Made by a program: the position numbers. Shown piece by piece: positions 54,101 through 57,100 of a stretch of DNA of 64,000 nucleotides (position 1 is the stretch's first letter; each line of letters opens with the position of its first letter). The stretch lies in NCBI RefSeq assembly GCF_054482525.1, contig NZ_CM137006.1; one strand, written 5' to 3'.

Positions 54101-57100
54101 CAGCCGACCAGGCGCGGACGGCATCACGGATTTTTTCGTGGCCTGGCACCTGTTTTGTTTGAGAACGATTTATCACCGCAGTCGGGCTAAATCCGCTAGT
54201 CTGTTGGTATGTAAGTGGTTGCATAATTGACTCCTTTAGTTTGAATTGACTGTTAAGTTGATTGCTTATTGTTAAAGAGCGTGAAATGGAAATTTAAGCT
54301 GCGTTCTTTTCGGTGTGTGGAAACAACTTCGGAAGATCCGGGCGAATCTGGTATGCCTTCACTACTCCACCAGTAGCCGTAACAATGCTGCCGACATGTT
54401 CAGGGGATACCTTTGCTTTGTTGTGAAGCCACTTATAGACGGCCTGCTGTGAAACTTCGCAGGCAGCGCCCAGTTTCTTTTGTGAACCAACGATATTGAT
54501 CGCTGTTTTGATAGCTGGATTCATAACAACCTCCGTGGTTAATTTGAATCAAGATTAAAACTATGGTTGTTTTTAGTCAACAACCATTTTCGTTTGATGG
54601 AATAAAACCTTGGTTGTACATTTGGACTATGAAAACAACACTCTCAGAAAGACTTAAAGAAGCCAGATTAGCGCGAGGCCTTACACAAAAGGCGCTTGGG
54701 GATTTGGTCGGGGTTAGCCAAGCTGCTATTCAGAAAATCGAAACAGGGAAAGCTAACCAAACAACTAAAATCGTGGAGATCGCGAACGCTTTGGGTGTGC
54801 GCGCAGAATGGTTATCTTCTGGCGTTGGAAATATGTCAGACAGTACAGTGCAACCAATACAATCAACTGTCAGCCATTCCAAATACTTTAAGATTGACGT
54901 TCTTGATATAGAAGTGAGTGCCGGGCCGGGAGTCATCAACCGTGAATTTGTAGAAGTTCTACGCTCGGTTGAGTACTCGTTTGACGATGCTCGTCACATG
55001 TTCGATGGCAGGAAGGCGGAAAATATCCGCATCATTAACGTGCGTGGTGACAGCATGTCAGGAACGATCGAACCAGGTGATCTGCTGTTCGTTGATATCA
55101 CGGTTAAATCTTTCGACGGTGATGGTATCTATGCGTTTCTGTACGACGACACAGCCCATGTAAAGCGCCTGCAAATGATGAAAGATAAGCTACTGGTTAT
55201 CTCTGATAACAAGAGCTACTCACCGTGGGACCCGATCGAGAAAGACGAGATGAACCGGGTGTTCATTTTCGGGAAGGTTATTGGCAGTATGCCGCAGACG
55301 TATAGGAAACACGGATAATCAGCTGCGTGCTGATGAGGCTTTTGGGTAATGCGCTGAAAGAATTCTTTATAAAAATAACATTACGGGAAAGGCAAAAATG
55401 AGTGATAAAAAACTTATAAAAAAATCAAATAACTGTGTAGATGCATATGCTGATGCATTTGGATATTCATCTTTTGGGGAAGATGACGATCGCTTAGGCT
55501 CCATATCTTTCTTTCAGCATGTTACAGAATGGGGCGCTGATGGTAGTAATGACACTGAAAACGTAAAGTACAACATTGCAACAATTCGCATGACGGAAGA
55601 TTTAATGCTTAAACTCGCTGACTTTATTCGCGATCAGCATGATAGAGCTAAAACCAATAAGTCATAATATTAACAATGAAACACGGTTATTACGAAGCTC
55701 CAAACCTAACTGAAAAGCTTGAACAAGCGGCAAGATCATCATCTTTGCACACTGCAGCATTTTCTCAATCAGCTGGTATGTCTGGCGGTAATGTACCTAT
55801 GCTACAATCAAGTGGTAGCGGTGGCTCTGGGAGTAATAATGTGCTTGAATCGAAAGTTGCAAAGCTTGAGTCTGATGTGTCCTATATCCGACGTGACGTT
55901 GATGAGCTTAAGACAGATGTCAAATCTATCGACAGAAACATGATCGCTGTTCTGGAGCGACTCGATTCAATAAAAGATTCACTAGCCAAAAAACCCTCCA
56001 TCGATGCTGTCGATAGAAAGATTTCAGACGCAAAGCTTGCGGTATTGCTTGGTGTTCCAGCAATCATCGCTGCAGGAACAGGTCTTTATAAGCTATCAAT
56101 GTACTTTTTTCTTTAGTGCTTAAGAAACTGCTCGCCACCTTGCATTACGCAAAGCGATTTTTCATTCCCTATTACCCTTTCTTATCCATATAAACCCGGC
56201 CCCAGTGCCGGGTTTTCTTTTGCCTCCCCTCATCACACAAACCGTTCAAAAAACCACCACGACCTCGCTTCAGTTATCGCTATGCGATGCAAGTCACAAA
56301 ATAAATCCATCTTAAATACAACCAGTTATATCTAAAACAACCAATAAAACAACTTTTGTTGTTGACGATAAAACAACTATGGTTTTAAATGAATTCATCG
56401 CAACAACACAACGATACGGCAATCACCTGATTCACCGTTGCGATGACCGCTTAGATCCGCAGCTTGAATTTCAGCAGGCTCCGGGGAGTGCGAGGGGTGA
56501 AGCGGACGCGTGAACGTCGGTGTGACCAGCTGAAATCAACTCAACACTTCATACCTCAGTCGCTTCAACGAGGCGACTTAGTTATGACAACCGGCGGCCA
56601 TCCACCGCCTGAATACGCGCAGAAGTCTCTATATGTTCAGCAGCCCAGCTTACGGGCAGGAGTTTTTATGGTTCATCAACATTACGGAACGCAGACCGTT
56701 AATCGAGGTGCGGTCATGCCAGGAATGCTGGTCAAACACAAAGATGGTACCTGGACTGCATCAGCTAATTTACGCGGACGGCTTTATCTGCATCGCGGCA
56801 TCGAGCGCACTTATACCCGTGACTTGCTCGTGGAAGTTTTTCTCGACGGGCGCGGCAACGGTCTGAATCACTAATCCCCTTTCCTGTTTACCTAATCAGC
56901 CTGGCATTTCGCGGGCGATATTTTCACAGCCATTTTCAGGAGTTCAGCCATGAACGCTTATTACATTCAGGATCGTCTTGAGGCTCAGAGCTGGGCGCGT
57001 CACTACCAGCAGATCGCCCATGAAGAGAAAGAGGCAGAACTGGCAGACGACATGGAAAAAGGCCTGCCCCAGCACCTGTTTGAATCGCTATGCATCGATC

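What the first reader, a model, noticed from the sequence alone, without database searches (positions are those of the whole stretch)
56464..56874. Atypical early-left operon: no recognisable N, ral, sieB, kil or cIII before gam
Downstream of the pL-like region the first ORF (136 aa, or 97 aa from the internal Met at 56584) is not lambda N-like, though its N-terminus has an Arg-rich stretch (GVKRTRERR) reminiscent of antiterminator RNA-binding motifs. The next gene is already the short form of gam, so ral, sieB, kil and cIII are all missing. The antitermination mechanism of this prophage is therefore unclear.
Basis: partly seen in the sequence, partly recalled or inferred. Interest (0 to 1): 0.35.

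Follow-up and report, generated by a model that had tools for sequence, protein, structure and literature searches.

The report
Kil gene behind N-less pL leader
The "unknown first ORF" is an over-extended call of a known 68-residue phage cell-division inhibitor (Kil/KilR type), and it sits behind a conserved non-coding leader that replaces the usual N antiterminator cassette in a prophage type found in about 40% of complete E. coli genomes.

Summary
The ORF 56464-56874 exists, but only its last 68 codons (ATG 56668, AGGAG 5 nt upstream) are a gene. That gene is a KilR/phi80-Kil-type division inhibitor (PHROG 294, E 1e-38; 36% identical to K-12 Rac KilR). So "kil is missing" is wrong.

The Arg-rich stretch lies in untranslated leader. 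A third of related haplotypes carry an in-frame TAG at 56557, and substitutions there show no third-position bias.

N, ral, sieB and cIII are truly absent. pL (-35 at 56362, -10 at 56385, start about 56397) is followed by a 150-nt leader that is constant across four immunity types. It occurs in 2209 of 5426 complete E. coli genomes and in plaque-forming phages such as Perceval. It evolves more slowly than synonymous sites.

The leader joins the remains of a phi80-type tL1 region exactly where the terminator hairpin should be. It matches no Rfam family, and a covariance model of HK022/HK639 put RNAs finds nothing.

No lambda tR2-like terminator lies between pR and Q, but lambda's tL3 sequence is still present before xis-int.

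Most likely this is an N-independent early architecture. Whether the leader is itself a cis-acting antiterminator RNA is open, at roughly 30%.

The parts
54563..55318 (+). cI-type repressor (HTH + S24 peptidase); it starts the leftward strand that also carries pL
   Evidence: Pfam HTH_3 and Peptidase_S24
56192..56215 (+). Intrinsic terminator that ends the cI-moron transcription unit, just upstream of pL
   Evidence: 9-bp G+C-rich stem plus T run; conserved in relatives
56362..56390 (+). pL: -35 TTGACG (56362-67), 17-nt spacer, -10 TTAAAT (56385-90), embedded in AAAACAAC operator repeats. The inferred transcript start is A at about 56397.
   Evidence: Read from the sequence. Near-identical promoter/operator at pR, 54560-54590 on the - strand. 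The layout matches the annotated phi80 pL, whose transcript also starts ATCG. Homology among different immunity types resumes exactly here. The start site is inferred, not measured.
56397..56444 (+). P1: 5'-terminal stem of the pL transcript (AUCGCAAC 56397-404 pairs with GUUGCGAU 56437-444). The boundary of the immunity module lies in its loop.
   Evidence: 98% of cells paired in 30 distinct sequences of four immunity types. Only one-sided, wobble-compatible changes, plus one mismatch each in types 3 and 4.
56432..56547 (+). Constant non-coding leader (candidate hairpins P2 56448-56492 and P3 56495-56527; alternative long stem 56464-75 with 56529-39). It contains the 'GVKRTRERR' codons.
   Evidence: Identical core in four immunity types. 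Variable-site fraction 0.095 against 0.22 at third codon positions of kil and gam, Fisher p 0.006. No Rfam match. No put match. No compensatory changes on both sides of a pair, so the structure is unproven. Fold z-score only -1.1.
56527..56560 (+). C-rich, G-poor unstructured stretch (10-12 C and 2 G per 30 nt), rut-like in composition
   Evidence: Composition scan; interpreting it as a Rho loading site is inference
56549..56587 (+). P4: conserved hairpin that follows the tL1 terminator in phi80, HK225, HK639, KO-TP1 and S9-5. Its base buries ATG 56584. In the window the terminator hairpin that should precede it is missing.
   Evidence: RNAalifold: 16 pairs in this hairpin, with all 7 of the alignment's both-sides-changed (compensatory) pairs lying in it, over 8 sequences; alignment; homology hits
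56593..56609 (+). P5: GGCGG-CCAUCCA-CCGCC hairpin inside the 28-nt box TTATGACAACCGGCGGCCATCCACCG, which is 100% identical to phi80
   Evidence: annotated as 'terminator' in HK639, although no T run follows it
56584..56667 (+). Pre-kil segment, the most conserved part of the locus. The upstream ORF that is a separate 21-codon ORF in phi80 and HK225 is fused in frame to kil here (the 97-aa reading).
   Evidence: Variable-site fraction 0.034, p 0.0005 against third positions. The homologous nucleotides are read in a different frame in HK225 and phi80, so the segment is not conserved as protein.
56668..56874 (+). kil: 68-aa cell-division inhibitor of the KilR/phi80-Kil family; AGGAG at 56658-62, 5 nt before the ATG
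   Evidence: PHROG 294 E 1.4e-38. NCBIfam NF008465 'FtsZ inhibitor protein' E 6.6e-17, 61 bits, below its cut-off of 92. 36% identity to K-12 KilR, E 9e-13. 85% to HK225 Kil and 38% to HK639 Kil. PGAP name 'phage encoded cell division inhibitor protein'. 21 synonymous against 11 non-synonymous variants.
56950..57246 (+). gam (98-aa form), followed by bet 57252-58037 and exo 58034-58714. Lambda-type homology begins at about 56868.
   Evidence: Pfam Gam 1-98/98; 164 lambda-like phage records match only window 56868-56950 of the query
59370..59388 (+). Intrinsic terminator identical in sequence to the lambda terminator downstream of orf61 (tL3 position); it lies between the Red/orf61 genes and xis-int
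   Evidence: Same 19-nt stem-loop and tail found in the window and in lambda
54269..54280 (-). Exact rrn-type boxA (GCTCTTTAACAA), 14 nt after the cro stop codon, with no boxB-like hairpin before cII
   Evidence: present only in this immunity type

Best explanation
Identity (shown). The finding covers the 5' untranslated leader of the early-left (pL) operon plus a short kil gene. The real gene is 56668-56874. It encodes a 68-residue KilR/phi80-Kil-type inhibitor of host cell division. The 204 nt of 'ORF' upstream of it is non-coding leader.

Architecture (shown). The window carries a lambdoid prophage next to icd. In this prophage the usual block pL-nutL-N-tL1(-ral-sieB-cIII) is replaced by a conserved leader of about 150 nt. 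That leader is fused to the distal part of a phi80-type tL1 region, exactly where the terminator hairpin should be.

Mechanism (inferred). Early transcription needs no phage-encoded antiterminator protein.
- Leftward, RNA polymerase reaches kil-gam-bet-exo without meeting an intrinsic terminator, because the tL1 hairpin is gone.
- Rightward, no lambda tR2-type terminator stands between pR and Q, and the genes are tightly packed and translated. This is the situation of N-independent lambda nin mutants.
- The conserved leader and the P4/P5 hairpins act in cis on the transcript. They could protect its 5' end, or set how much transcription and translation gets through the C-rich, Rho-prone stretch into the toxic kil gene.
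- xis-int expression then depends on leakage through the retained tL3-type terminator.

My probabilities: gene identity about 0.95; absence of N about 0.95; this 'no processive early antitermination' mechanism about 0.4. The confidence value given for this explanation (0.45) refers to the mechanism as a whole.
For: Gene identity: profile hits and pairwise similarity start at residue 60-69 of the ORF. PGAP calls the 68-aa form. There is a stop-codon polymorphism at 56557 and no coding pattern of substitutions upstream, against a clear coding pattern in kil.

Architecture: the leader is constant from +1 of pL in four immunity types. It is in 2209 of 5426 complete E. coli genomes. It is in isolated phages, including Perceval, which forms plaques (PMC9928086). 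All 161 IMG/VR copies of the kil-proximal segment with enough upstream sequence carry this leader and none carries N.

Lost terminator: in phi80, HK225, KO-TP1, S9-5 and others, a hairpin plus T run lies immediately before TTCATACC. In the window it is replaced by TCAACTCAACAC.

pR to Q: the terminator scan finds only three weak 5-bp candidates there. The same scan finds tR2 and tL3 in lambda, as a positive control.

Leader is functional: it evolves more slowly than synonymous sites. P4 shows covariation.

Precedent: Rac kilR is kept silent by NusG/Rho termination (PMC5793797), and its 5' UTR yields a short RNA, KilS (PMC8175672).
Against: The lambda tL3 sequence is retained before xis-int, yet these prophages are inducible. 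That argues for some read-through mechanism at pL.

Rho-dependent terminators cannot be detected with these tools, so 'no terminator between pR and Q' holds for intrinsic ones only.

A 150-nt element kept constant across immunity types, and placed exactly where HK022 and HK639 place putL, is more than a plain 5' UTR would need.

No transcript data were available. The transcription start is inferred.
Confidence: 0.45

Rival explanations
1. The constant leader (56397-56547, chiefly the two irregular hairpins P2 and P3, about 80 nt) is a cis-acting antiterminator RNA. It would be a functional analogue of HK022/HK639 put, but unrelated in sequence. As it emerges it would bind the transcribing polymerase and carry it through the Rho-prone stretch before kil and through tL3 to xis-int.
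For: It has the same position as putL, immediately downstream of pL (PMC9378689; HK639 annotation). N is absent in viable phages. It is constant across four immunity types and under purifying selection. The tL3 sequence is retained downstream. The same kil-proximal module sits behind N in phi80 and HK225 and behind put in HK639 and S9-5, so in relatives this position is normally served by an antitermination device. HK639 is annotated with a single put, in the left operon only.
Against: A covariance model of eight put RNAs scores at most 7.3 bits (E 0.77) anywhere in 40000-62000, and not in the leader. BLAST with putL hits none of the window-type phages. There is no second copy in the pR operon. 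There are no compensatory changes on both sides of a pair, and the fold is no more stable than shuffles. The 5'-terminal stem P1 is also present in N-type phages, so it is not specific.
Confidence: 0.3
2. The Arg-rich stretch is translated. Either a mini-protein is made from GTG 56497 (MKRTRERRCDQLKSTQHFIP, with SD-like GGGGAG 8 nt upstream), or an Arg-rich-Kil fusion is made in haplotypes without the TAG. It would bind an RNA hairpin as the N arginine-rich motif binds boxB.
For: KRTRERR resembles the lambda N motif TRRRERR (from my memory of the N sequence, not tested). GTG 56497 is ATG in 5 haplotypes. Four common variants in this 21-codon stretch are synonymous. IdasGreatGrand annotators called a 31-aa ORF here.
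Against: No profile library matches this part. The codon-position pattern of variation is not coding-like. One haplotype has a stop inside the motif, and another loses the start codon. Twenty residues lack the NusA- and polymerase-binding parts that N needs (established knowledge of lambda N). There is no shared boxB-like hairpin in the pL and pR transcripts, and three of the four immunity types have no boxA after cro. The same bases form hairpin P3, which also explains their conservation.
Confidence: 0.06
3. The operon is a decayed remnant: N and its neighbours were lost by deletion in a defective prophage, and nothing replaces them.
For: The junction lies inside the T run of a former terminator, which looks like an illegitimate recombination scar.
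Against: The same arrangement is in 41% of complete E. coli genomes with little variation. It is also in phages isolated as virions or plaques. kil, gam, bet, exo, xis, int, O, P and Q are all intact in the window. The leader is under purifying selection.
Confidence: 0.04
4. Host Nus factors alone provide antitermination through the perfect rrn-type boxA after cro, as in rRNA operons and CRISPR arrays. No phage protein is involved.
For: An exact 12-nt rrn boxA lies 14 nt after the cro stop, in the untranslated gap where lambda has nutR and its rut sites.
Against: There is no boxA in the pL leader. The boxA is present in only one of the four immunity types that share the N-less leader. At most it can protect the cro-cII gap of this type.
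Confidence: 0.15

Closest known systems
KilR of the E. coli Rac prophage, and Kil of phage phi80, HK225 and HK639 (PHROG 294; NCBIfam NF008465)
   Same: Small protein of 68-73 aa with an M-x-x-x-H-(Y/F)-G-T start. It lies early in the leftward operon, just upstream of the recombination genes and downstream of the first terminator region. Sequence similarity runs from 36% (KilR) to 85% (HK225).
   Different: It scores below the NCBIfam cut-off, so it is a more distant subfamily than K-12 KilR. It is unrelated to the 47-aa lambda Kil (no Pfam hit). Its activity on FtsZ or MreB is untested for this subfamily.
Phage phi80 early-left operon (pL, nutL boxA/core, N, tL1A, tL1B, kil)
   Same: The promoter layout and the first bases of the transcript are the same (ATCG...). 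The P4/P5 segment and kil lie in the same order. A 28-nt box is identical.
   Different: The roughly 740 nt holding nutL, N and the tL1A hairpin are replaced by an unrelated leader of about 150 nt. The separate 21-codon upstream ORF is fused in frame to kil. gam, bet and exo are of lambda type, not phi80 type.
HK022 / HK639 put RNA phages (N-less lambdoids with a cis-acting antiterminator RNA)
   Same: No N gene. A conserved structured RNA lies immediately downstream of pL. In HK639 and S9-5 a kil of the same family lies behind terminators further down the operon.
   Different: There is no sequence or covariance-model similarity to put, and none of the invariant put motifs (GAACG..C.C / GTCGG / GGCGGG..AGG..GA..G.CAAT) occur in register. 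There is no Nun-like gene and no second copy in the right operon.
N-independent lambda derivatives (nin deletions that remove tR2)
   Same: No intrinsic terminator of tR2 type between pR and Q. Q and its downstream terminators are intact.
   Different: This is a natural, very common configuration rather than a laboratory deletion. Morons (EmrE-like and recombinase-like genes) occupy the place of tR2.

Membership tests
KilR / phi80-Kil family of phage cell-division inhibitors | Sequence homology to family profiles and to characterised members | tested here: met
   PHROG 294 E 1.4e-38 over profile positions 4-80 of 83. NF008465 E 6.6e-17 but 61 bits, below the cut-off of 92. K-12 KilR 36% identity, E 9e-13.
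KilR / phi80-Kil family of phage cell-division inhibitors | Size of about 68-73 aa and a conserved N-terminus, M-x-x-x-H-Y/F-G-T | tested here: met
   Alignment of six homologues, an AGGAG Shine-Dalgarno sequence and the PGAP gene model
KilR / phi80-Kil family of phage cell-division inhibitors | Position in the early-left operon, between the first terminator region and the recombination genes | tested here: met
   Same order in phi80, HK225, HK639, KO-TP1 and S9-5
KilR / phi80-Kil family of phage cell-division inhibitors | Blocks cell division (FtsZ) when expressed | not testable with these tools
   Known for Rac KilR (PMC12482147 abstract; PMC5793797). Not tested for this subfamily.
Lambda Kil (Pfam Lambda_Kil) | Match to the Pfam family | tested here: not met
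   No Pfam hit for the ORF at E <= 0.1
Lambda-type N antiterminator | Homology to an N family, or a protein with an N-terminal Arg-rich motif plus NusA- and polymerase-binding regions, as the first pL gene | tested here: not met
   No Pfam, PHROG or NCBIfam hit for residues 1-59. This stretch is non-coding by its polymorphism pattern and by the stop codon at 56557.
Lambda-type N antiterminator | Matched nut sites (boxA plus boxB hairpin) in both the pL and pR transcripts | tested here: not met
   boxA only after cro, none in the pL leader, and no boxB-like hairpin next to it. boxA is absent in three of the four immunity types.
put antiterminator RNA (HK022, HK639) | Sequence and structure match to the put consensus (two stem-loops with invariant motifs) | tested here: not met
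   Model R1, built from 8 put RNAs, gives a best hit of 7.3 bits, E 0.77, outside the leader. BLAST is negative in both directions.
put antiterminator RNA (HK022, HK639) | Located just downstream of the early promoter, in a phage without N | tested here: met
   Leader starts at +1 of pL and there is no N. This is a positional resemblance only.
put antiterminator RNA (HK022, HK639) | Promotes terminator read-through in cis without phage proteins, and is blocked by mutations in the beta' zinc-binding domain | not testable with these tools
   Needs reporter or in vitro transcription assays
Rfam families (any) | Covariance-model match in 56390-56670 | tested here: not met
   cmscan of 53500-58000 at E <= 10 returns nothing in the leader

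The most novel reading that the evidence does not exclude
The leader of about 150 nt that replaces nutL-N-tL1 is a new class of cis-acting processive antiterminator RNA. It would do what put does in HK022, with an unrelated sequence, and it is carried by prophages in roughly 40% of complete E. coli genomes. The covarying P4/P5 hairpins before kil could be a second, separately conserved RNA control element shared by N-type, put-type and N-less phages.
Probability: 0.25. Interest if true: 0.7.

Novelty: new variant of a known kind. Interest (0 to 1): 0.4.

Why it matters
The gene itself is ordinary and is already named by NCBI's annotation pipeline. What is less ordinary is the setting. A very common family of E. 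coli lambdoid prophages, including viable phages such as Perceval and copies in O157:H7, runs its early-left operon without N and without a put-family RNA. In their place is a constant leader that is under purifying selection.

In the papers I could search I found no description of this leader. King et al. 2011 on new put RNAs was not available to me, so prior description cannot be excluded.

If the leader is an antiterminator, it would be a second, independently evolved RNA that reprograms E. coli RNA polymerase. That would be a natural subject for the kind of structural work done on put. If it is not, these phages are a natural example of N-independent lambdoid development. They would also be a convenient system to ask how the toxic kil gene is held in check by Rho.

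Tried and rejected
1. N-like protein. Pfam, PHROG and NCBIfam scans of the 136-aa ORF gave no hit for the first 59-68 residues.
2. Known RNA family. An Rfam scan at E <= 10 gave nothing in the leader.
3. put membership. BLAST in both directions (searches failed because a file was missing) and a covariance model of eight put RNAs were all negative.
4. HK639 'M3-like RNA'. No similarity in the window.
5. A second copy of the leader in the pR operon. BLAST of the leader against the window found only a 15-nt match, CGCAGCTT(G/A)AATTTC, next to boxA (E 3.2, possibly chance).
6. Covariation support for leader hairpins P1-P3, or for an alternative long stem. There are no changes on both sides of a pair, and all one-sided changes are wobble-compatible, so the test is uninformative. 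The fold z-scores are unremarkable.
7. Distant homologues of the leader. These searches found only near-identical copies, or only the P4/P5 segment: phage collection in distant mode; 15 kil loci from other Enterobacteriaceae genera; the Rac kilR upstream region including KilS.
8. A sigma-dependent pause element like that of putL. One NANNAT at +14 to +19 is not conserved in the other immunity types, so I dropped it (reading of the sequences).
9. Literature. Searches for N-less lambdoids, Bievrevirus, prophage sRNAs and Pas sRNAs turned up nothing on this leader. King 2011 (PMC3187212) is not held.
10. First attempt at search for related loci with six Kil proteins failed because the alignment was too divergent. 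It was repeated with four.
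Full report
**Setting.** The last 10 kb of the window is the immunity and early-left region of a lambdoid prophage.
- On the + strand: a cI-type repressor (54563-55318), two small accessory (moron) genes, a terminator (56192-56215), then the flagged ORF. These are followed by gam (98 aa), bet, exo, homologues of lambda orf60a/orf63/orf61, a DksA/TraR-like gene, xis and int (60319-61461). The integrase abuts a gene I recognise as icd (61575-62825); that identification was not tested.
- On the - strand: cro, a phi80-type cII, O, P, ren, morons, ninB, rusA and Q.
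- So cI, pL and the early-left genes share one strand, as in lambda.

**The promoter.** TTGACG (56362-67), 17 nt, then TTAAAT (56385-90) sits among AAAACAAC repeats that recur at pR. The annotated phi80 pL has the same layout, and its transcript starts ATCGAAAC.... By analogy the window transcript starts at A 56397 (ATCGCAAC...). This start is inferred, not measured.

**What the ORF is.**
- Pfam finds nothing in the 136-aa ORF.
- PHROG 294 ('Kil protein for bacterial septation inhibition') matches residues 60-136 at E 1.4e-38.
- NCBIfam NF008465 ('FtsZ inhibitor protein', the Rac KilR family) matches residues 69-136 at E 6.6e-17. The score is 61 bits, below the cut-off of 92.
- Residue 69 is the ATG at 56668, preceded by AGGAG at a 5-nt spacing.
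- The 68-aa product is 85% identical to HK225 Kil, 78% to Klebsiella phage KO-TP1 Kil, 42% to phi80 Kil, 38% to HK639 Kil, and 36% to K-12 Rac KilR (E 9e-13).
- All of these proteins begin M-x-x-x-H-Y/F-G-T.
- RefSeq annotates exactly this 68-aa form as 'phage encoded cell division inhibitor protein'.
- Phage depositors chose 68, 96, 128 or 139 aa for the same DNA, which shows that the upstream open frame misleads gene callers.

**The upstream part is not coding.** I collected 121-161 copies of the locus from IMG/VR with two exact-match probes.
- Among 54 distinct haplotypes, 17 carry CAG to TAG at 56557, in frame.
- Substitutions in 56464-56583 fall 11:5:7 on codon positions 1:2:3. In kil they fall 4:7:21, with 21 synonymous and 11 non-synonymous.
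- The Arg-rich stretch therefore lies in untranslated RNA in the usual sense.
- The 97-aa reading from ATG 56584 cannot be excluded by stop codons. However, this ATG begins a separate 21-codon ORF in phi80 and HK225, and the homologous bases downstream are read in another frame there.
- The ATG is also buried in the base of a conserved hairpin.

**What is missing, and what replaces it.** N, ral, sieB and cIII are absent. Nothing else of size lies between pL and gam, and the small ORFs beyond exo are DUF1317, DUF1382 and lambda orf61-like.

Homology to lambda-type phages begins only at about 56868, at the kil stop.

Window 56548-56650 is homologous to the segment that follows the first leftward terminator in phi80, HK225, HK639, KO-TP1 and S9-5. 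In each of those phages a G+C-rich hairpin and T run lie immediately before TTCATACC. In the window that place is taken by TCAACTCAACAC. In those phages the terminator is preceded by N (annotated in phi80; HK225 shares phi80's nutL-type leader with boxA), or by genes under put control (HK639, S9-5).

The window instead has a 150-nt leader that runs from +1 to the junction.

**The leader.**
- It is constant in four different immunity types. Their operators, promoters and even the 5' arm of the first stem differ, while pairing with the constant 3' arm is kept.
- It is found in 2209 of 5426 complete E. coli genomes, nearly always once per genome, at 95-100% identity. These include O157:H7.
- It is present in phages recovered as particles or plaques. 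For Perceval, plaque isolation is documented (PMC9928086).
- Every one of the 161 copies of the kil-proximal segment with enough upstream sequence carries this leader. 159 of them have the exact 20-mer from its core.
- It varies less than neutral sites. The fraction of variable sites is 0.095 for 56432-56547 and 0.034 for 56584-56667. It is 0.22 at third codon positions of kil and gam, and 0.17 in the kil-gam spacer (Fisher p 0.006 and 0.0005).
- So the leader is functional, but the sequences are too alike to prove a fold. RNAalifold proposes P1 (56397-404 with 56437-444), P2 (56448-92) and P3 (56495-527). A rival long stem is equally compatible. No pair shows a change on both sides, and stability is ordinary (z -1.1).
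- The stretch 56527-56560 is C-rich and nearly G-free, which is the composition of Rho loading sites.

**A second RNA element.** The hairpin P4 (56549-56587) has 16 predicted pairs, and all seven of the alignment's compensatory (both-sides-changed) pairs lie in it, across eight phages and prophages of N-type, put-type and window-type. P5 (56593-56609) has an almost invariant loop, CCAUCCA. Neither has an Rfam family.

**Is it put?** HK022 putL lies at +3 to +72 of the pL transcript and works without phage proteins (PMC9378689). HK639 is annotated with one putL-like RNA. I aligned eight put RNAs; their stem II shows clear covariation. I built a covariance model from them and searched 40000-62000 with filters off. 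The best score was 7.3 bits (E 0.77), elsewhere in the window, and nothing fell in the leader. BLAST is negative both ways. The leader is not a member of the put family. Whether it works like put remains open.

**Is antitermination needed at all?** A consensus scan finds no strong intrinsic terminator on the - strand between pR and Q, only three 5-bp candidates. It does find the expected strong terminators just after Q. The same scan on lambda recovers the terminator between ren and ninB (the tR2 position) and the one after orf61 (the tL3 position). That makes the negative result meaningful for intrinsic terminators.

In the left operon, the window keeps a terminator identical in sequence to the lambda tL3-position terminator at 59370-59388, ahead of xis-int. 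Rho-dependent sites cannot be scored here.

An exact rrn-type boxA follows cro. It occurs in only one of the four immunity types and not in the pL leader, so it cannot be the general answer.

**Conclusion on mechanism.**
- Shown: the gene is kil; N and put are absent; the tL1 hairpin is missing; no tR2-like site is present; the leader is conserved, and P4 is structured.
- Inferred: lytic development is N-independent for the same reason as in lambda nin mutants.
- Inferred: kil-gam-bet-exo are transcribed without crossing an intrinsic terminator.
- Inferred: the leader and P4/P5 tune, in cis, how much transcription and translation reaches the toxic kil. This fits the NusG/Rho silencing of Rac kilR (PMC5793797) and the short RNA made from its 5' UTR (PMC8175672).
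- The retained tL3, together with the inducibility of these prophages, keeps the alternative alive at about 30%: that the leader is itself an antiterminator RNA.
- A translated Arg-rich mini-peptide is unlikely, at about 6%.

**Verdict.** The finding is half right. The ORF is a mis-extended, already-named kil gene, which is ordinary. The N-less early-left operon is real and widespread, and I could not find a description of its leader in the papers I could search. I rate it of moderate interest.

Noticed in passing
window 54269-54280 (-), and 33590-33601 (+): There are two exact copies of the 12-nt rrn-type boxA GCTCTTTAACAA, where I estimate about 0.01 would be expected by chance (my arithmetic; one search gives a shuffle expectation only for matches with up to 2 mismatches). 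One lies 14 nt after the cro stop and occurs only in this immunity type. The other is antisense inside the tail-completion gene (33186-33761, -).
   Followed up: partly
window 56549-56609; also L010 3471-3530, L011 3503-3565, L004 about 33100-33160 (-): Two RNA hairpins, P4 and P5, lie between the first leftward terminator and kil. They are conserved with compensatory changes across N-type (phi80, HK225), put-type (HK639, S9-5) and N-less phages. A 28-nt box is identical in phi80 and the window. There is no Rfam family, and the function is unknown.
   Followed up: partly
window 56458-56472 (+) and 54289-54303 (-): A 15-nt motif, CGCAGCTT(G/A)AATTTC, is shared by the pL leader and the end of cro, just upstream of boxA. 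The BLAST E-value within the window is 3.2, so it may be chance.
   Followed up: no
window 55398-56116 (+): The two genes between cI and pL are 89 aa (PHROG 4231) and 146 aa (coiled-coil with a C-terminal hydrophobic tail, PHROG 3556), both of unknown function. Relatives carry other cargo at this spot: GevT/GevA, a HipA-like pair, or a SIR2-family gene. The position therefore looks like a hot spot for defence or moron genes.
   Followed up: no
window 49491-51658 (-): The place of lambda tR2 and the start of the nin region is occupied by an EmrE/QacE-like small multidrug exporter gene (51272-51658) and a 508-aa serine-recombinase-like gene (49491-51017).
   Followed up: no
window 56397-56415; L010 2744-2762; L004 about 34375-34357 (-): The pL transcripts of phi80, HK225, HK639 and the window type all begin ATCG... 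and can form a hairpin at the very 5' end, whichever antitermination system follows.
   Followed up: no
window 60319-62825: The prophage integrase abuts a gene that I recognise as icd (isocitrate dehydrogenase), the attachment site used by e14 and phage 21. The identification is from memory and was not tested.
   Followed up: no
L203 4406-4503 (-) (E. coli K-12 Rac): K-12 has an annotated small RNA, KilS, in the 5' UTR of kilR. It is not homologous to the window leader, but it is a precedent for short RNAs arising upstream of kil genes.
   Followed up: partly
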